A stretch of DNA of 64,000 bases from Sphyrna mokarran (Eukaryota), in contig JAGIQG010000002.1 in assembly GCA_024679065.1 (NCBI GenBank), positions 137,020,001-137,084,000 on the forward strand, in the 5' to 3' direction. The position numbers were made by a program, and so were the translations under genes. Positions 5,088 through 58,113 of this stretch are shown piece by piece (positions within the stretch are counted from its first letter, which is position 1; each line of letters starts with the position of its first letter). A model generated the notes under the pieces. That model was not told the DNA's origin and ran no database searches. It saw only the letters and a list, made by a program, of their open reading frames with translations.

Positions 5088-5679
5088 CTAAAGGAGATAA
5101 TATTGAAAAGTCTTTACTACAGGAATAACTCATTTTCAAAATGATATTGACTTCAAAAATCATGTTCCAAGATTTGTACAATATAAAGAATTAAGGTCAA
5201 TAACATCTAAGAATCCTTGAAGATGTAGAATATCTGTACGTGCACCGTAAAGTTAAAGGCTGGTTCAACTTTTATCTTTTGTGTATTGGTACTCCGACAA
5301 AGATCAACTGAAATGTATTCATGATTTTATAAGTATAAAACTCCCAGATAACATTTCCGTAGTACAGATCTAGCTCAGTGCAAAAATGTCAATTTTATCA
5401 CCACAAAGTAACATATGTTTCAGTGTCGTTTTCTTCTTGCGTTACATGAAAGACATATTCTGAGTTATGTTCGGGAGAGATATTCCTTTCCCACAGGCTC
5501 CCTCAGATTTTCCTTACAGCAGAACAACAGCACACAAATGCAATTCTGTATTTAATTGCTTTACACTTCAAGTTGTGATGTTCAAGTTGCAACTTTCACT
5601 CAGCACTTGGGAGCAAAGCACAATGAATAGGAATATATTGAGACAGAACCCAAGGATGTTGCTCACAGTATAGTTAAGA

Positions 5680-18898: not shown

Positions 18899-19059
18899 CT
18901 ATACAATGAAAATAATGTTGAATAAGTTGTTTAGCAAAATAAATAGACAATTTTTCTACCATGACTAAATAAAATATCAGCACCAATATGTTAATCAATG
19001 GTTAACATTTATTAGCTCAGCAAGTTTATTGTGAGAGAGCAGACAGATCCCACATTTTA

Positions 19060-19250
19060 CCAGCAGGTCTGACAGCACTTATGAAGGCAAAAACAGTTAA
19101 TGTTTTAGGTTGATGGGAAGGGTTCTAATGAAAGGTCATCAACCTAAACATTAATGCTGTTTCTTGCTCCAGAAATACTACTAGGCCAGCTGAGCATTGC
19201 AGCACTCGCTTTTTAAATTCAGATTTCCAGTATCTGCTGTATTTTGTTTC
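19060..19250. mobile_element. Ancient Penelope-related inverted-repeat element with degenerate hammerhead core
   Basis: Inverted arms 19097-19115 and 19137-19154. Degenerate CTAATGA-AAGGT-CATCA-ACCT-AAA-CATT. Related fragments near 18575, 32800, 41935 and 42415. Confidence 0.5.
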
Positions 19251-19495
19251 AGTCCCAAATCTGACCCCAGGTCTGTGCCAAATAAACTGATCAGTGGTTG
19301 GGCACGGCAATTGGCATTAGCATCTGGCACAGCATGAGGAAAGAAAAACAAACAGAGCTCCTATTTCTGATCACTAATCCTGTGACCTCTCCTGGGAATC
19401 CACATTTGTAGTTCAAGAGCAAAAAAAGGATCATGCTTCATGGTAATAACTGGCTGATACTCTAGCTACTTTTGTAGATACCATGAGACTAACCT
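19250..19495 (+). mobile_element. LF-SINE-like ancient SINE relic
   Basis: caattggcattagc...ctcctatttctgatcactaatcctgtgacctctcctgggaa...ggatc resembles the recalled LF-SINE consensus. Confidence 0.5.
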
Positions 19496-19974
19496 TTACA
19501 TAGGTCTGCAGTCCAGTCTCTAGTATTGAATGCATCCTCAGAGTAAGATTATTTATTAATATTCTTCTTCCCTTCCCCCACCCCCCCAAACTCTACATAC
19601 GTTTTCAAAGTAGAGCAGCTTTAAAAGAGATTTATTGCAAGTCAGTTCCAAGAGACTCTTCAATCAGACAATAAAGCCTGATAAATGACAATCTTTTATA
19701 ACCTTTTACCGTCCCAAGAGCAAGCTTTTGGCCTTGTGAACAGATCAGCAGTAGCCATGGCCAAATCTTCCAAAGTTATTGGCTATTTGCATACTCATCT
19801 AGACTTAACCTAATTCTTCCAACAGTTTTTTTTAATTGAAGCACTGAAATTTGTATTAGAAATGTACTGTAATTAATGACATGTGAATACAGCTGCTGTT
19901 CAAATGAAGCCTCAAACCATTAATTAGTTACAGTTTAAGATTCATTAGTATCATTGGTGCTAAGCAACATGCGC

Positions 19975-20290
19975 CCTGAGCGTACAATCTTGGCTGATCC
20001 TCAAGTGCAGTACTCAGGGAATGCTGCATTATCAGAGGCAGAATCTTTTGAATCAGATGTTAAATTCAAGCCCCATCTTCCTGCTCAGGAATGATATTAA
20101 AGATCCCCTGGCACTTTTCAAAGTCCGAGAATTTGTCTCCATCTCAGTAGTTGCACGCTTGTCTTCAAACAGCTGTGGGTTCTAAAGAATGGAATGTGAA
20201 ATCTGACGCTTCATTGCATCACTGTGGGAGTGCTGCACTGTCAGAGATTCTATCTTTTGAACAAAACTCTAAATGAAGGATCTGTCCGTT
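19975..20290 (+). mobile_element. Deu-domain SINE (SacSINE1-like) fragments
   Basis: ggctgatcctcaagtgcagtactcagggaatgctgcattatcagaggc...aaagatcccctggcact. A second partial copy starts at ~20215 (gggagtgctgcactgtcagag). Confidence 0.7.
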
Positions 20291-20367
20291 CTCATACATT
20301 GATATAATCTTCGCAACTAGCAATTGTTGCATTAGTTTAGTAGGAAATTCCTTAGCCTTCACTTTTA

Positions 20368-20675
20368 GAATTCTCCAGTGCAGGTGGTGGCCATTCAGCC
20401 CATTGAGGCTGCATTGACCACAATTCCATCCAAGACTAATCCCCATAAACCCATGCATTCACCTTAGCTAAACCACCTGACACTAAAAGGGCAATTTACC
20501 ATGGCCAATCCACCTAACCCGCATATTTTTGGACTTGGAAGGGAGCACCCGAAGGAAACCCACACAAATGCAGAGAATATGCAAACTCTGCACAAAGTGA
20601 TCTAAACTGGGAACTGAACCCAGGTCCCTGGCGCTGTGAGGCAGTAGTGCTAACCACTCTGCCACCATGCTGCTC
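20368..20675 (-). mobile_element. HE1/V-SINE
   Basis: Reverse complement of the head (ggcgctgtgaggcagtagtgctaaccactctgccaccatgctgc) and of the tail. Confidence 0.85.
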
Positions 20676-20890
20676 CTATTAGATTTAGGGTAACCTTTTT
20701 TCCTTTGTTCTTCCACTATAAATGCAAGACAAAATACTTCAAAAATGGTTTCATTAACATAACATTTGCAACGAACATTAGAATGTTTTGGGACTGGGGA
20801 ACAAAGGTTTGAAACAGACTTTTTCACCTTTGACACCCAAGTTGAATAGACGAAAGTTTTAAATAGATGTAACTTTATGTCTTTGAAATA

Positions 20891-21181
20891 GGGCTGTACG
20901 ATGGCACAATGGTTAGCACTGATGCCTCACAGCACCAGGGACTCTGATTCAATTCCAGTCTTGGGCGAGTATGGACTTTTCACATTCTGAGTCTGCACGG
21001 GTTTCCTTCCACAGTCCAAAGACGTGAGAGTTAGTTTGGCCTTGCTAAATTGCCCCCTACTGTTAGGGGGATTAGCAGGGGAAGTTCGTGGAGTTATAGG
21101 GAAAGAGCCTAGGTGGAATTGTTGTCGGTATAGACTCGATGGGCCAAACGGCCTCCTTCTGCACTGTAGGGATTCTATGAT
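20891..21181 (+). mobile_element. HE1/V-SINE
   Basis: Full head, and tail gggccaaacggcctccttctgcactgtagggattctatg. Confidence 0.85.
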
Positions 21182-21620
21182 CCTAACTAATACCAGTTGT
21201 GCCTGATGAGCACAAATGCCAATTATAAATCTGCCTTCATCTTATTTTGAACCTTTTAAACTTGCATCTGTTGTGAACTCACTAAAAATGAGGTTGGGAT
21301 TAATGCCACAGTACAAGCAGTGAGCAACCAGCTACTGATTTGCTTGCATGTGAATACACAATGATCAATTTAATGCAGACTGCAAATTACTGCAGACATC
21401 TGGTTAAGAAAAAAATTGCCAAGACAAAACTAATTAACTGGTTACTAGAAGCATTTCCTGACACGAGTTCCGAATTTGCTTTTTACCAGTTTGCATCCAC
21501 TGTCCCATATCGTTTCATCATAGGTTAATTGTGAACTAGCGCTGAGGATGAATCTTTTCTATTTGGCATCTTACAAATCTGCAAGATCCCCTGTCCTTTC
21601 TGATTCTGGACTCAAATTGT

Positions 21621-21877
21621 AGTAAGACATCTCACAACACCAGGTTAAAATACAACAGGTTTATTTGGTAGCAAAAGCTACTAGCTTTCAGGTCTCTGAT
21701 TCTTTGTCAGATGAGTGGAGAATTCTGATCAGAACTCTCCACTCACCTGACAAAAAGTAAGGGACTGAAAGTTAGTGGCTTTTGCTACTAAATAAACCTA
21801 TTGGACTTTAACCTGATGCTGAGAGACTTCTTACTGTGTTTACCCCAATCCAACACCAGCATCTCCATATCATGTCT
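21621..21877. mobile_element. Palindromic Penelope pLTR-derived mini-element with a hammerhead-like motif in each arm and a 10-bp TSD
   Basis: Arms 21621-21728 and 21729-21835 are reverse complements around ttctgatcagaa. Flanked by CTCAAATTGT at 21611-20 and 21878-87. Homologous to the terminus of the GIY-YIG element at 51975. Confidence 0.85.
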
Positions 21878-22137
21878 CTCAAATTGTCTCAGAGAAGGCA
21901 TACTCACTATGCAAAAAAACTGCTAACATCTTTCCACAAAAGATCGGAATGAGGCCAACAGGAAGAATGGGCAACATGATATGCCCTTTTGAAGCAGAAA
22001 TGCTTTCTGAGTAGGCAACTTAGTTTACTTGTATTCTACAGAAAGTACAATTAATTCTAATAGTGATCAAGTCAACCTAAAGCATTTTATATACAATTTA
22101 CCAACATTTCAGCCTTTGGGGAAATTGACATATTTTC

Positions 22138-22338
22138 ACTAATCCCTCTGACAACAGAGGGACAATTTGGCATGGCCAATCAACTAACCCACATTTTTGG
22201 ACTGTGGGCGGAAACAGTACCTGGAGGAAACCCACTCAGACATGGAGAACGTTCAAACTTTACCCAGTGACCAGAGGCTGGAATTGAACCTGAGTCCCTG
22301 ACACAATGGGCAGCAATGCTAACCACTGTGCCAGCCAC
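22138..22338 (-). mobile_element. HE1/V-SINE
   Basis: Reverse-complement head and V-domain. Confidence 0.8.
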
Positions 22339-23552
22339 AGTTAAGAGGCAATTAGTTAAATACACAAGGGAAAAAGGAATAGAAGGTTATCCAACTATGT
22401 TTAGATAAAGAGGGGTAGGAGGATGCATAAATAGACCAGCAGGGCCACTATTGATCCAGCAAAAGTCACTACCTCCTCTCTCCTGGTTTTATATGACCTT
22501 CAACATACATGCTCTTCAGTTGAATCGATTCTTCACACTCTTGGCTTTTTGCCATACAGTTCTGATATTCCATCCTTTAAATACTTTCTGGACTCATTCA
22601 TCAGCCCTGCACCTCCCCTGCTTACCCCACCTTCAAACCTGTGTTGAACCAGAGCATCAGTTTTTTGATGTTGCAAGCTGATTCCACACGATCAATGGCA
22701 ACTTGATCTGATTATATAATCTATAACTTTAGATTTCCTGCTGATATCTGTCCGATATTCCCTGTTTATTACCAGGGCTTATCTATTCTAATATTATGTA
22801 ACCATTCCTATGTAATCTGATTTTGCGCATCCATTTATCTGTGTATTCTAGCTGTTGCTTCAAACCCAGAGTCCACCACCTCCGTTGCCATCTTCTCTCA
22901 CCATTGTATCCTTCACTTTCACCCTCTCAGACACCAGGCTCCCACAAATCTCTACCCCAATCTTGGGCATGCCGCTCCCACAAATCCCTATGGCATTCTC
23001 AGAGGCCCTGCCCCCATAAATCCCTAAGCCAAACTATCACGCTATCCAGCCCCAAGCCCTGAAATTCCTTCTCTAGACTCCTCTCCCAATGATACTCCTT
23101 TAAACATTCCTGACTTGGGCTTCATTTCACCTGTGCCAACATTTTTTTTTATATGGCTCATTGTCAGATTATTTGATAACATGAAGTGCTCTGGTACATT
23201 GCCCTATACAAATGCAAACAAAACATCTGAACAAAATTTTACATGTTTATTAGAAAGGCAGCTAGACATAAAGCTTCAAGTGATGGCTCTAGAGATGCTC
23301 TATTATTGGTTAATGGCGCTAAATATCATCTTATTCTTAATGGAAATGAAAAACCCAGGTGAAGAAATCACCACCGCCAGTGGTAAATATAGTACAAAAG
23401 AACGCAAACAATATCAGATTAAGCAACATAATTCTGGATTTTAAAATCAGGAGGATTGCAAGAATTAGTATTATTTGTCTAGGTCTAAGACAGCTGAGAA
23501 AGAATGTATACAATACAGGAATTCAGGCTTTTGCTTCTGACTTTGAAATGAC

Positions 23553-23810
23553 AGCAGTGGTTAGCACTGCTGTTTCACAGTGCCAGAGACCCCGATTCAA
23601 TTCTGGCCTTGGGTGACTGGCTGTGTGGAGTTTGCACGTTCTCCCATTGCCTGTGTGGGTTTCCTCTGGGTGCTTTGGTTTCCACCTACAGTCCAAAGAT
23701 GCATCAGGTTAGATGTATTGGCTGTGGGGGGAATGAGGCCTGGGTGGGACTGTTGTCAATGCAGACTTGGTGGGCAGAATGGCCTTCTTCCGCTATTCAA
23801 TGATTCTAGA
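23553..23810 (+). mobile_element. HE1/V-SINE
   Basis: cagtggttagcactgctgtttcacagtgccagagacc... with a CR1-type tail. Confidence 0.85.
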
Positions 23811-25885
23811 ATACTGATACAGGTGGTTTCCTTGCAGTTAAACAGTGGATTATCGTGCATTCTACTGTTACTTCAAAATTGCTTTTGCTCAATTATCCAT
23901 TTTGACAGAAGACATTGTAAAGCAATGCATAGGAACACAAAAAAGAAAGCAACTAAATGCTAAACGAACGCACTATACAACATTTGCAACACCACTTCCT
24001 CAGCAATTGCATAAAATTCAATGTCATGATAATAAAGTTATCAATCTTCTCAGCTTCGGGGAAAAATCTACCTGAAATCAGTGACCCCACTAGCAACTCA
24101 GAAGGGATGCTTCACATGACATCAATTTGAGCATGTGTGTCTGCACCACAGCAAATCAACAGCACAAAGGCACCAACAATATCCAACTGCATGTGTCCCT
24201 GTCATTGAATGCTAAATGGAACAACATGGTTGGGCTAGGGGAAAATGAACCTGATTCTCTGACTTTGGAGAAGTAGCATCAACATTTTCCCCACACAGTA
24301 TCAACAATTTCCATTCCAACACAATGAAAAAAGATTCAAACCTCATGTGTCAGCAATCACAACAGGCATGCTCATGCTCAAGAAGGTTCACTGCTTTGGT
24401 ATTGGCTGTTCATACGGAATCCTCTACTTTCAACTGCAGCTTCTATTTCTGCAATAACCTTTTAATTTCTTCTGCCTCATGGAAATCAGGTCAGGAGTCA
24501 GGGAGGGTAATTTGTAATAATGTGAGATACTTATCCCCTCTGATCCCACCCAGACCTTGAGCTGCAGGTGCTCAGACATCTATAAAGAAGAAAGTACAAT
24601 TTTTTGAGTATCTAGCTCAGCTCCCAATCTAACAGCAATATTTTTTGGAAGTGAGAGTCAGGAAGCCGTGATTGAATGCCTGTCAATGCAGATCTGTAAG
24701 GAGCAGCATCATGGATCACAAGGGGCAAAGCAACCAAGTTAGAAAATATACAGTTTTAAGTTTCCTTACAAGTTAGCTGGTGTAAGCATGTCCATGCAGC
24801 CCTCAGTCTCAGGCCAGACGCAGTCCCACATCCCTGCAAGTGCCAGCCACTCCCCTCTAACAACCTCAACTAACAGCCAGTGACTACTGTCGCTACAGCT
24901 CCCTTCTGTAAGATTCTCATTAGATAGAATTCCTATTCATCTGACGCCAAGAGCTTACAGCGTTTTCTTTATCAATGGGTGTATTCTGACAAACCTCTGA
25001 CGCAGTCACAGACAGACACCTAATTCAAAAAGTCAATGCACCAATAAATCTAGTTTAACCATTCAATTAAGAGGCCCAATTATTTAGAAGGTCTTGGACT
25101 GTTTTTCCCCCACTTGTGACAATGACCAAAAACATTCATCTCTCGGAATCACTGTGAAATGAAACTTGTAGCATCTTCAAAAGAAATGGCATTCCTCCAA
25201 AACTGGACAGCTTTAAGCACTTTAAATGACCTAAAGATTGTGTGGGCTTCTGCTGATAATTAAAGCTCTCCAAGGTCATTCCCAAACACACCTTTCTATA
25301 GAATGTTTGTGTATGCAGGCGTAGAGACTCCTTAAACTGAAGTTGGAAGTTAAATTAACATGCAAAGACTATTTCTCTGTAATGCAGATTATTACAGGAA
25401 ATTTTAGGCAAACCTCAATAAAAAGAACAGTCTTGCCCCTCTTTGTAAATGTTTGCAGCTTCTAACTACAGAATATCTTAGTATCAACAAGATCTTTTCC
25501 ATTTCTAACCTCATTATCCTTAAGGACTGAACAATTTCAAGCAAAAGATTCTCTCAATGACAAGGCCAGCTGAACAGGTAATATCAGAACCAACTTAAAT
25601 AGACACTTCATGCCGTCAAGAGATTTTTGACCCCATTGATCTTGCCTGCTTCAAGTAGCAATTTTAGATAGGTTTTAATCTATTGTACACTTTCCTGCTC
25701 CATGCCCCAAACAGCAGGCGTAAGTGCAATTGCATCTAAACCACCCCCCTCACGACTAAAATAACCTTGACAACTTAAGTCACACCAGCTAGGAGGTGAA
25801 ACAAACAACATTTAATAATTTTGCTGAATTAAGTATAGCTATGTTATTTGGTTTACTGCTGCACAGAAGCTCAAGAAAGACTTAC

Positions 25886-26035: not shown

Positions 26036-26102
26036 CTACAAGGAAAGGGAGTTTACCACAATTAGAAAAACATTCTCCAGATTCTGAATCAACTTAAGTA
26101 AT

Positions 26103-26193
26103 GCACAATAAGAAGTCTCACAACACTAGGTTAAAGTCCGACAGGTTTATTTGGAATCATGAGCTTTCAGAGCGCTGCTCCTTCATCAAGTGA
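26103..26193 (-). mobile_element. Solo Penelope pLTR fragment with minimal hammerhead motif
   Basis: Minus strand TCAC-TTGATGA-A-GGAGC-AGC-GCTCT-GAAA-GCTC-ATGA followed by AAATAAACCTG. Confidence 0.75.
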
Positions 26194-38566: not shown

Positions 38567-39567
38567 GAAGTGATGTGTATGCTGGATGGGGGAATTGCGG
38601 TGGATGTGATGTATATTGCCTTTTAGAAAGTGAAAATGCCATGTGGATGTTTAGAGCAGATTTAGTGCATAGGAAATTGGTTGAAGGAGCAAATTGCAGC
38701 TGCAATCTAAGCCTGAGCCTTGAGGGGGAAATGATTGTTTAAATTGCACAGAAAGTATATTACACAGACAAATTCGAATGGGTCACATTTCAGTGCTTTA
38801 TTATGGATGCTGTTGTCAATGTAAAACTGCAGGACATAAACAGGATGCTCCAGTACGTTAGTTCTGGTATTCAAACAAGTATCTTCCAGTTTAGTGTGTG
38901 CAATTTATCAGACAACGCAAATCAACTCAACTGCTTTCTTTATTAGGATGCATCGAGGAAAATCAGTCAAGATGACTCCTTGCTCTAAACTCAGCCACCA
39001 GAAAGTTTATATAACATCCACAATCCCTTCGTCATTTTAAACACTGTCGAATTATCTCTAACTACAACTTTTTTGATATCGTGCTTCGATTGACATTTCT
39101 TCATCCTGGATACGGGTGATTCTAACTGCATCTTCCAAATAGATAGTTACATGGGTAAGAATGATAGAGGGATATGGGCCAAACTCCAAGTCAACCAGCA
39201 AAGCATTATTATTCTTTCAACAAAATATATCACCCCTTACACAACAACATTGAATTCTGGCTACCAGTTTTTGCCCATTTGCCCCCATCAGTACCACTAT
39301 CCAATTTCCTCTAGTCCTCATGATTTATGAGCACACTACTCCTAGATTTTTACCAGGTGAAAGCAATTAAACAAATCATTTCCCCCTCAAGGCTCAGGCT
39401 TAGATTGCAGCTGGAATTTGCTCCTCCAACCAATTTCCTAAGCACTAAATCTGCTCTAAACATCCACATGGCATTTTCACTTTCTAAAAGGCAATCCACA
39501 TTCACCATGGATGTGTGCAGTGAATCACATCCACCGCAATTCCCCCATCCAGCATACACATCACTTC
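38567..39567. repeat. ~180-bp inverted duplication (38567-38747 vs 39363-39567)
   Basis: Near-identical reverse complements. The left copy lacks a ~25-bp internal segment. Confidence 0.95.
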
Positions 39568-51974: not shown

Positions 51975-52615
51975 CTATGATGTGGAGATGCCAGACTTAG
52001 ACTGGGTTAAGCACAGTAAGAAGTCTCACAACACTAGGTTAAAGTCCATCAGGTTTATTTGGCAGCATAAGCTTTCGGAGTCTCGGTTCTTCATCAGGTG
52101 AGTGAGGCTTGTATTCACAAACATATGCAGACACAAACTCAATTTACAAGATAATGCTTGGAATGCGAGTCTTAAAATAAGATAATCAAGTCTTAAAAGT
52201 ACAGACAAAGTGAATGGAAAGAGGGTTAAGCACAGGTTAAAGAGGTGTGTATTGTTTCCAGCCAGAACAGTTAGTGAGATTTTGCAATCCCAGGGAAGTC
52301 GTGGGGGTTACAGGTAGTGTGATATGAACCCAAGATCCCAGTTGAGGCCGTCCTCATGTGTGCGGAACTTGGCTATCAGTCTCTGCTCAGCGACTCTGTG
52401 TTGTGTGTCGTGAAGGCCATCTTGGAGAATGCTTATCCGAAGATCAGAGGCAGAATGCCCGTGACTGCTGAAGTGTTTCCCAACAGGAAGAGAACACTCC
52501 TGCCTGGATTGTCAAGCAATGTTCATTCATCCATTGTCGAAGCATCTGCATGGTCTCCCCAATGTACCATGCCTTGGGACATCCTTTCCTGCAATGTATC
52601 AGGTGGACAATGTTG
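51975..52615 (-). mobile_element. Penelope-like retroelement 3' end (GIY-YIG endonuclease plus pLTR with hammerhead motif)
   Basis: Minus frames read NIVHLIHCRKGCPKAWYIGETMQMLRQWMNEH...SLPVGKHFSSHGHS...EQRLIAKFRTHEDGLN. pLTR CAC-CTGATGA...GAAA-GCTT at 52066-52100. Confidence 0.9.
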
Positions 52616-53019
52616 ACTACTGGGGAATTAATAGTTAATGATGGATGGTTAGAATTAATAGTTAATGATGGATGGTTAGAGACAGAGCATGCAGGGCGAG
52701 GGTTTGTAGGCAGAACTACTTCTTTTAAATCTTAGAGGGAGTGAATGTTAGTGTAAATTGAAAAGGAGAAGGCCATCCTGCTGAGTTGAGGTGAGGTGTA
52801 GGAGTGGACTGCTGCTTCAATCTTCCAGGACAGTGGTTTCTGTGAAAGGATAATGACATTGTGAATTGGGGAAGGTAGCTGGAGAAAACATCAATGTCTG
52901 TGTGAGAGTGTTAGGAGGGATAGTGCTGTTCTAAATTCAAGATGGGTAAAGGAGTATTCTCTGCATAGGAAGAGCGGGGAAGACTATCATTGTCAACTGG
53001 GGAAGGTTTGGAGGGAAAT

Positions 53020-53146
53020 CACATTGTCTGTACTTTTAATTCTTGATTACCTGTAAAGATTTGCATTCCAACCATTACCTTGTAAATTGAGTTTGTGTCT
53101 GTATGTGTCCTGTTTGTGAACACAAGTTCTCACTCACCTGATGAAA
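53020..53146 (+). mobile_element. Inverted partial Penelope pLTR
   Basis: Reverse complement of ~52090-52210. Ends ctcacCTGATGAa (53138-44). Confidence 0.8.
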
Positions 53147-53419
53147 CAGCAGTCCACCTCCTACAAACAAAGACAGTAGGATTAATAGTCTCCAGCTGCC
53201 ACTCATTCATTATCCTGCAGTCAGCTTGGGCTATGAAGGGGCAAATAGAATCAGCAACACTTCCTTCCCCAACGCAGTAAAGCCTGCTGGGCTATCAACA
53301 TATACAGATAGCAACAGAAAAAAAGGAAGAAGATTGATGCTGTCACAGCTTAAGTACCTGCCAGCACTTGCACTTGTCACTGACAGTCAGCCCCCATCAA
53401 ATGTCAGCAGTAAGACTTA

Positions 53420-57545: not shown

Positions 57546-57630
57546 GAAATGTGAATGATGTCTAGGCTGATGATAGACAATTGAACTGGAGATGCTAGCA
57601 TTGGACAGGGGTGGGCACAGTAAGAAATCT

Positions 57631-58113
57631 TGACAATTTCTAAGGTTCAGCGCTCTGGATTCAGCTTGGTTTGATAATAATCAAGTCAACTCCAGATAGA
57701 AGATTTATACCTTTACTCTTTTACGATGCCGGGGCTAGTTTTCCTTAAGGTGGGTAGGCATCAGTGGTCCCGCACACTCAGGCAAAACTAATTGCTTGTC
57801 TACTTTTTCCAAACACTTATCCCAGTCTGTAGGTGGGTTTCCAGAGCATTAACCTATTACAACTTGTCCCCGACTCTTTTACACCAATAGAGCAGTGGTA
57901 TAGCTGCACGCACAGTTCAAGATGTTCTGAAAACCAATCAAATCTGTACACACTTTTATCACAATAAATCCTTAGATGACAGTTAAAACACTTGGTACTA
58001 GATACAGCTAGACTACAGACTGTGATTAATTGCACTTCTGCATATGCGCAGGACAGCATTTCACAGCATGAGATTACAAACTATACAGAAACCTTATGGC
58101 TTTTATATTCTCA
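57631..58113 (-). mobile_element. ERV-A 3' LTR (~483 bp)
   Basis: Starts TG directly after the polypurine tract AAAAGGGGGGAA (58114-58125). Terminal inverted repeats TGAGAAT...ATTGTCA. AGTAAA at 57714-19. Interrupts a Penelope pLTR fragment. Confidence 0.75.

What the first reader, a model, noticed from the sequence alone, without database searches (positions are those of the whole stretch)
21611..21887. TSD-flanked 257-bp palindromic element with a hammerhead motif on each strand
Seen: a non-coding element with a 10-bp TSD (CTCAAATTGT), two ~108-bp head-to-head arms and a 42-bp tail. Each arm has CAC/CAT-CTGACAA-stemII-GAAA-G(C/T)TA-GT(G/A). Known: Penelope-like elements carry minimal type I hammerheads whose helix III is reduced to a palindrome (AGCU) and which cleave as dimers. 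Inference: an independently inserted, MITE/retrozyme-like non-autonomous derivative. It is transcribed within DNAJC13 intron 4 as a ~100-bp hairpin and presents a ribozyme motif in either orientation. Both arms carry G8>A (CTGACGA>CTGACAA, a CpG-type change), so this copy is probably inactive.
Basis: partly seen in the sequence, partly recalled or inferred. Interest (0 to 1): 0.7.

Follow-up and report, generated by a model that had tools for sequence, protein, structure and literature searches.

The report
Head-to-head Penelope retrotransposon stub in intron
This 257-base mirror-image insert is an old, broken end-piece of a very abundant Penelope-type jumping gene in a shark-like genome, in a layout already described, and its two halves were likely copied separately at the moment of landing rather than moving as a ribozyme element of their own.

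Summary
In detail: 10-bp TSD, 108/107-bp head-to-head arms (83% alike), one-sided tail and a G8>A hammerhead motif on each strand, in a DNAJC13 intron. Contigs from two other organisms show the empty site; four other runs carry the insert. Both arms are the 3' end (pLTR) of an autonomous Penelope-like element whose linker motif marks the Neptune/Nematis type, and a 3.2-kb coding copy has the same two ends. In 1.78 Mb of evenly spaced genome samples, 47 head-to-head pairs had variable centres and arm lengths; none shared this centre. Left and right arms form no separate lineages. Inverted 5'-truncated copy plus tail plus TSD is the textbook PLE insertion. The likely mechanism is two cDNAs, primed on both nicked target strands from the two RT start sites and joined at TGATCA. 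Side result: arm 5' ends pile up just upstream of the ribozyme (8-fold), not at its cut site, with a modest excess of an extra G, hinting at run-off from a capped RNA start. This scan noted the same pattern before, in this and other genomes. Both motifs here are probably dead.

The parts
21611..21620 (.). Left target-site duplication (10 bp)
   Evidence: single copy in empty-site contigs of organisms F and I
21621..21728 (-). Inverted, tail-less copy of the last ~108 nt of the Penelope-like pLTR
   Evidence: same outer end as in all look-alike loci and in the 3.2-kb coding copy L087
21679..21713 (-). Decayed minimal type I hammerhead motif (G8>A at 21705; helix II mismatched); the only motif in sense in the host pre-mRNA
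21726..21731 (.). TGATCA palindrome shared by both arms: junction microhomology, present in the element's own sequence
21729..21835 (+). Sense copy of the last ~107 nt of the pLTR
21744..21777 (+). Decayed minimal type I hammerhead motif (G8>A at 21752; AGCU changed to AGUU; helix II reduced)
21836..21874 (+). 39-nt PLE 'tail', ending at the ORF start codon (ATG 21872-21874)
   Evidence: family profile; continuation into the ORF in L007, L075/L086, L087
21876..21887 (.). Right target-site duplication (exact 10 bp at 21878-21887; perhaps 12 bp from 21876)
18899..25885 (-). Host intron of DNAJC13 (RME-8), between the 150-nt exon 26035-25886 and the 42-nt exon 18898-18857
   Evidence: PF19432 exon matches and translations

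Best explanation
This is a dead, 5'-truncated insertion of an autonomous endonuclease-bearing Penelope-like retrotransposon, consisting of two head-to-head copies of its pLTR end, likely made once at landing when both nicked target strands primed a cDNA and the two short cDNAs were joined at TGATCA. Shown: family identity, TSD, empty and filled orthologous sites, variable centres, absence of arm lineages. Inferred: one cDNA began at the tail end and the other at the pLTR end (the two RT start sites known in vitro for an Anolis PLE); both stopped near the RNA's 5' end just upstream of the hammerhead; repair sealed the join. Afterwards the arms decayed independently, including CpG decay of G8. 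The palindrome does not move as a unit and its ribozyme motifs are predicted to be inactive.
For: (1) L087 holds a 3,244-bp copy with the same ends: tail-less inverted arm at left, tail at right, own TSD. Its frames match RT proteins with RVT_1 and a GIY-YIG region with a CX4CxxC linker. (2) 178 x 10-kb samples: 171 arms reaching the 3' end, 47 abutting head-to-head pairs; 38 of 47 have one tail, 5 two, 4 none. 20 of 31 testable one-tail pairs have a TSD scoring >=9, against 0 of 93 mismatched flank pairs. (3) In 21 of 38 one-tail pairs the tail-less arm reaches further upstream, in 3 the tailed arm, 14 are symmetric (p=0.0003 for 21 vs 3). In those 21 each arm holds sequence the other lacks, so neither is a fold-back copy of the other. 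(4) Arms of one locus are closer than arms of different loci (0.18 vs 0.27, 0 of 5000 shuffles; 21 pairs), with no side effect (p=0.63). (5) The CpG in the core differs between the two arms in 16 of 23 scorable look-alikes (read), so the double G8>A needs no common cause. (6) PMC11167929 (parts 1-2 of 4 read): the PLE protein cuts and extends both strands, starts at two sites that bound the tail, and ribozyme mutants still insert.
Against: The focal copy itself is symmetric and centred on a natural palindrome, which also fits self-priming (Arkhipova 2013, PMC3846280, passages). 14 of 38 pairs are symmetric. Arm ends come from HMM alignments and are good to about 5 nt. Later deletion at hairpin centres could create asymmetry, though not an obvious one-sided bias. 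The in vitro data are from a Poseidon-clade element, while this one has the Neptune/Nematis linker. A weak side effect among the 25 best look-alikes (p=0.066) is not fully null; that set was selected by likeness to this copy.
Confidence: 0.8

Rival explanations
1. Same parent element, but the inverted arm arises by self-priming: one cDNA (or a copy of an antisense RNA) folds back at TGATCA and is copied onto itself, and the endonuclease trims one end to leave a one-sided tail.
For: The focal junction is a perfect palindrome, and several other symmetric pairs are centred on short palindromic words. The model is published (PMC3846280, passages), and a TATAAA word lies on the antisense strand of the pLTR.
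Against: In 21 of 38 pairs each arm holds sequence absent from the other. In a few loci (L031, L107, L029; by eye) the two arms carry different helix II variants, which points to two templates.
Confidence: 0.13
2. A non-autonomous MITE- or retrozyme-like family: the whole 257-bp palindrome is transcribed, self-cleaves and is re-inserted as a unit.
For: Many look-alikes of similar size with their own TSDs exist (40 scored of 8,596 candidates; a TSD in 17 of 25 distinct loci). Short pairs of 90-240 bp are the commonest class.
Against: Centres differ in 23 of 24 other best look-alikes; the one match (L020) has a different helix II variant. 0 of 47 unselected pairs share the centre. No side-specific lineage. 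No tandem units as in retrozymes. The motif is buried in a ~100-bp duplex in either strand's RNA.
Confidence: 0.04
3. The host keeps the hairpin as a functional intronic RNA structure (editing substrate, small-RNA source or ribozyme) in DNAJC13.
For: The insert is fixed and shared by runs X2, X4, X9 and X8, and a strong hairpin is predicted in the pre-mRNA strand (z=-16).
Against: The arms differ at 18 of 108 columns, mostly transitions, as expected from neutral decay. Both catalytic cores are broken. Tens of thousands of such pairs are expected genome-wide. No Rfam family reaches its cut-off.
Confidence: 0.03

Closest known systems
Insertion unit of canonical EN+ Penelope-like elements (Craig et al. 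2021, PMC8557442, Fig. 2 legend and passages; Arkhipova et al. 2013, PMC3846280, Pen2a_Av)
   Same: Inverted 5'-truncated copy adjacent at the 5' end, 30-40-bp tail at one end only, 8-10-bp TSD, palindrome at the inverted junction, tail running into the ORF start.
   Different: Here both copies are cut down to about 108 nt, so no coding sequence is left; such stubs are the commonest product in this genome.
[quoted passage not shown]
   Same: Short helix I, extra nucleotide before helix II, variable helix II, palindromic 15.2-16.2. That paper already reports dual motifs 100-700 bp apart on opposite strands in Schistosoma.
   Different: Both motifs here have C3 with A8 (not the U3-A8 covariant) and damaged helix II. 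Sharks are not mentioned in the parts read.
Poseidon element of Anolis, PAc (Frangieh et al. 2024, PMC11167929)
   Same: Tail bounded by two RT start sites; both target strands cut and extended; ribozyme not needed for insertion in vitro.
   Different: PAc is Penelope/Poseidon clade with the ribozyme overlapping the ORF start; this family has the CX2-5CxxC linker of Neptune/Nematis and its motif lies about 100-130 nt before the ATG.
Animal non-LTR retrozymes (Li et al. 2026, 10.64898/2026.07.22.740005, part 1 of 5 and passages)
   Same: Non-coding, PLE pLTR-derived, type I hammerhead.
   Different: Retrozymes are head-to-tail tandem units with same-strand ribozymes; this is a head-to-head pair with one motif per strand and no unit-length propagation.

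Membership tests
EN+ Penelope-like element insertion | Sequence is the pLTR of an element encoding RT plus C-terminal GIY-YIG endonuclease | tested here: met
   L086/L087 link this end to an ORF; homologues P0001, P0003 carry RVT_1, the DKG motif and a GIY-YIG-type region. Pfam gave no hit on the six decayed fragments themselves.
EN+ Penelope-like element insertion | Inverted 5'-truncated copy adjacent to the 5' end | tested here: met
EN+ Penelope-like element insertion | 30-40-bp tail at one end | tested here: met
   39 nt here; one tail in 38 of 47 pairs
EN+ Penelope-like element insertion | Target-site duplication | tested here: met
   empty sites
Neptune/Nematis-type PLE | CX2-5CxxC linker upstream of GIY-YIG, absent in Penelope/Poseidon (PMC8557442 passages) | tested here: met
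   CX4CxxC in L087 and P0003
Neptune clade specifically | RT phylogeny groups with Neptune rather than Nematis | not tested
   no reference set was on hand; no tree built
Minimal type I hammerhead | Core boxes with helix I and II pairing and palindromic 15.2-16.2, in the family | tested here: met
   78 of 120 arms spanning the motif parsed; helix I CAC/GTG or GC/GC and several helix II variants with compensatory changes, read by eye; no formal covariation count run
Minimal type I hammerhead | Intact C3-G8 and helix II in this copy | tested here: not met
   G8>A in both arms; helix II mismatched; neither motif folds as a hammerhead
Minimal type I hammerhead | Self-cleavage | not testable with these tools
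   needs an in vitro assay
MITE-like non-autonomous family | Copies of uniform structure derived from one another as a unit | tested here: not met
   variable centres and arm lengths; no side lineages
Non-LTR retrozyme | Head-to-tail tandem units, each with a same-strand hammerhead | tested here: not met
   head-to-head pair, one motif per strand, no further copy beside it
Non-LTR retrozyme | Circular RNA accumulates | not testable with these tools
   no RNA run was available to lay

The most novel reading that the evidence does not exclude
These stubs are a genome-wide fossil record of the Penelope insertion step: both target strands prime cDNA on the short 5' leader of a capped, uncleaved RNA, and the copies run off at transcription starts just upstream of the hammerhead (a CA at -95/-94, perhaps another at -105/-104), often adding a cap-templated base. 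This would explain the inverted arm and one-sided tail of all PLEs and show that the ribozyme does not set the 5' end of templates in this family.
Probability: 0.45. Interest if true: 0.55.

Novelty: new member of a known kind. Interest (0 to 1): 0.22.

Why it matters
As a single locus it matters little: one of an estimated 70,000 or more head-to-head pairs in this genome, old and decayed. As a class, the stubs bear on an open question, how PLEs build inverted arms and tails. Their end statistics favour two separately primed cDNAs over self-priming and give exact, testable predictions for the RNA start. The filled and empty orthologous sites also make this insertion a usable presence/absence marker among related species.

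Tried and rejected
Rfam scan: only weak miRNA-type hairpin matches, none at cut-off, no hammerhead family. A genome search with the conserved 72-nt end found nothing because common words are skipped, so I sampled the genome instead. Pfam on six decayed ORF fragments gave no significant hit; identity rests on homologues. Sequencing-run search: no RNA holder listed; expression, editing and circles were not examined. Run X22 did not cover the flanks. Pile-up of 5' ends at the ribozyme cut site (-59): 8 arms within -64..-56 of 26 in -84..-45, p=0.23, not supported. Extra G before A-104 in the focal subfamily: 37 G, 38 T, 15 A among 90 matches (hand count); confounded by the partner arm's sequence and by template variants, so inconclusive. 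My first pairing script mispaired several loci and was replaced by abutting pairs only, which leaves out long pairs with gaps over 40 nt. I first called the family Poseidon (notebook); the linker motif corrected that. Literature: 9 searches ran. None listed a paper on these shark stubs, on twin priming in PLEs, or on cap-derived bases in PLEs; the library lacks most subscription journals and no supplements were read, so these may be in print.

Full report
Observation. The feature is as described. An exact 10-bp repeat flanks it. Two arms of 108 and 107 bp face head to head and differ at 18 of 108 columns, 13 by transitions. The hairpin is far more stable than shuffles (z=-13.8). Each arm carries a minimal hammerhead-like motif with G8>A. 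Helix II is also damaged in both, the right arm has lost the AGCU palindrome, and neither motif folds as a hammerhead alone. Rfam gives nothing at cut-off. PF19432 (RME-8 N-terminus) matches exons on the minus strand on both sides. The insert sits in the intron 25885-18899, after the third coding exon found. In the pre-mRNA only the left motif is in sense, and it is predicted to be locked in the long duplex.

It is a real insertion, and old. Contigs of organisms F and I run from 21610 straight to 21876 in one record: the empty site. Runs X2 and X8 show both filled junctions, X4 the left and X9 the right. Their flanks differ from the window at about 7-10 letters in 100. The 265-nt skip suggests the duplication may have been 12 bp and the true tail 39-40 nt.

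What family. The genome search gave 8,596 candidates, of which 40 were scored. Following the tail onward led to coding copies. L087 holds a 3,244-bp element with exactly the same ends as the focal stub: tail-less inverted arm, tail, own TSD. One of its frames finds 11 longer homologues, 7 of them named from sharks, most with RVT_1. [quoted passage not shown] By PMC8557442 (passages) that linker marks Neptune/Nematis and is absent from Penelope/Poseidon. No tree was built. The tail ends at the ORF's ATG.

Is the palindrome a family of its own? No. Best hits are biased towards the query's shape, so I took 178 stretches of 10 kb at round-number places on 19 large contigs. They hold 171 arms reaching the 3' end and 47 abutting head-to-head pairs, about 266,000 arms and at least 73,000 pairs if scaled up. 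A reversed-sequence control gave 0 hits on the first 98 stretches. Of the 47 pairs, 38 have one tail, 5 two and 4 none. Arm 5' ends run from -14 to beyond -885 (0 = pLTR end), across several subfamilies. Three pairs have both ends in -118..-100, and none has the focal centre. TSDs scoring 9 or more were found in 20 of 31 testable pairs and 0 of 93 mismatched controls. Among the 25 distinct best look-alike loci (30 fetched, 5 duplicates dropped), only L020 shares the focal centre, and it has a different helix II variant. Left and right arms form no separate groups (p=0.066 in that selected set; p=0.63 in 21 unselected pairs, focal included), while arms of one locus are closer than arms of different loci (0.18 vs 0.27). 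So each palindrome was built at its own landing. G8>A is ordinary CpG decay: 15 of 78 parsed arms have A8 (42 of 120 did not parse), and the two arms disagree at this CpG in 16 of 23 scorable look-alikes.

How it likely forms. Reading outward-in, each arm is a cDNA that could be primed from a target 3'-OH, one per strand. One starts at the tail end and one at the pLTR end. This matches the Anolis PLE in vitro: both strands cut and extended, two RT start sites bounding the tail, ribozyme mutants still inserting (PMC11167929). In 21 of 38 one-tail pairs the tail-less arm reaches further upstream, in 3 the tailed arm, and 14 are symmetric. In those 21 each arm has sequence the other lacks, which a simple fold-back cannot give. 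A few loci carry different helix II variants in their two arms (L031, L107, L029, by eye). The focal copy alone cannot decide, since it is symmetric about a TGATCA present in the template, which also suits the self-priming model of PMC3846280. The dual-priming step is inferred, not shown.

Side result. Of 168 arms not cut by a sample edge, 59 end in -116..-85, just upstream of the ribozyme core (-88): 8.5 times the per-base rate further upstream and 4 times that downstream; 23 end in -96..-92. Arms in pairs are not independent and ends are good to about 5 nt. Long copies of the same subfamilies align through this region, so it is not a profile artefact. There is no excess at the predicted cut site (p=0.23). 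Genome-wide, for one 19-letter word starting at A-94, the preceding base is the template C 5,202 times, G 639, T 422, A 243. Leaving out the class in which the partner arm can supply the G, 254 remain; about 210 of these have a purine in front (83 of the first 100 listed), against 110 for A and 74 for T. Of the first 20 such loci inspected, 18 are true 5' ends and 2 are point changes in longer copies; in at least 5 of the 18 the G can come from the partner sequence. This is modest support for run-off at a capped start. The cap idea came from earlier notes of this scan; D. virilis Penelope has its start site in the pLTR region (PMC2377424, passages). The same test at A-104, nearer the focal junction, was inconclusive.

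Comparison with what is known. An inverted 5'-truncated copy, a one-sided 30-40-bp tail and a TSD are the typical PLE insertion (PMC8557442; PMC3846280). Opposite-strand pairs of minimal hammerheads 100-700 bp apart were noted in 2014 (PMC4209133). Retrozymes are head-to-tail tandems, which this is not. The scan has noted the same stubs many times in this and other genomes; those are unchecked notes and are not counted as evidence.

Verdict. A real but ordinary, decayed PLE stub: a new member of a known kind. Interest 0.22. The class-level reading (dual priming and run-off at a capped start) has probability about 0.45 and would deserve about 0.55.

Noticed in passing
window 51977-52618 (-) with 53019-53154 (+): Longer copy of the same family (GIY-YIG end, pLTR, tail) with a partial inverted piece about 400 nt upstream.
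   Followed up: partly
window 26099-26193 (-) and 57583-57680 (-): Two more short stubs of the family; the first is tail-less and begins at about -92, some 60 nt from a DNAJC13 exon.
   Followed up: partly
window 20887-21177 and 22139-22333: Two copies of another dispersed repeat (SINE-like, not identified) flank the element in opposite orientation, about 70% alike.
   Followed up: no
window 38567-38747 and 39363-39567: An inverted repeat pair, 84% alike over about 205 nt, unrelated to the query hits.
   Followed up: no
L124 around 5426-5442: The junction holds the inverted arm's end twice, each time followed by the same extra base, as if the RT ran off and restarted.
   Followed up: partly
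L007:1460-1925: Three-part insertion: inverted arm with tail, sense arm with tail running about 60 nt into the ORF start, then a second tail-less sense arm.
   Followed up: partly
family profile, about -125: A TATAAA word lies on the antisense strand of the pLTR; the sense strand has only a weak TATA-like word about 30 nt before A-94.
   Followed up: no
P0004: A database protein annotated as an epn2 isoform of Heptranchias perlo carries this family's RT region, either exonisation or a gene-model artefact.
   Followed up: no
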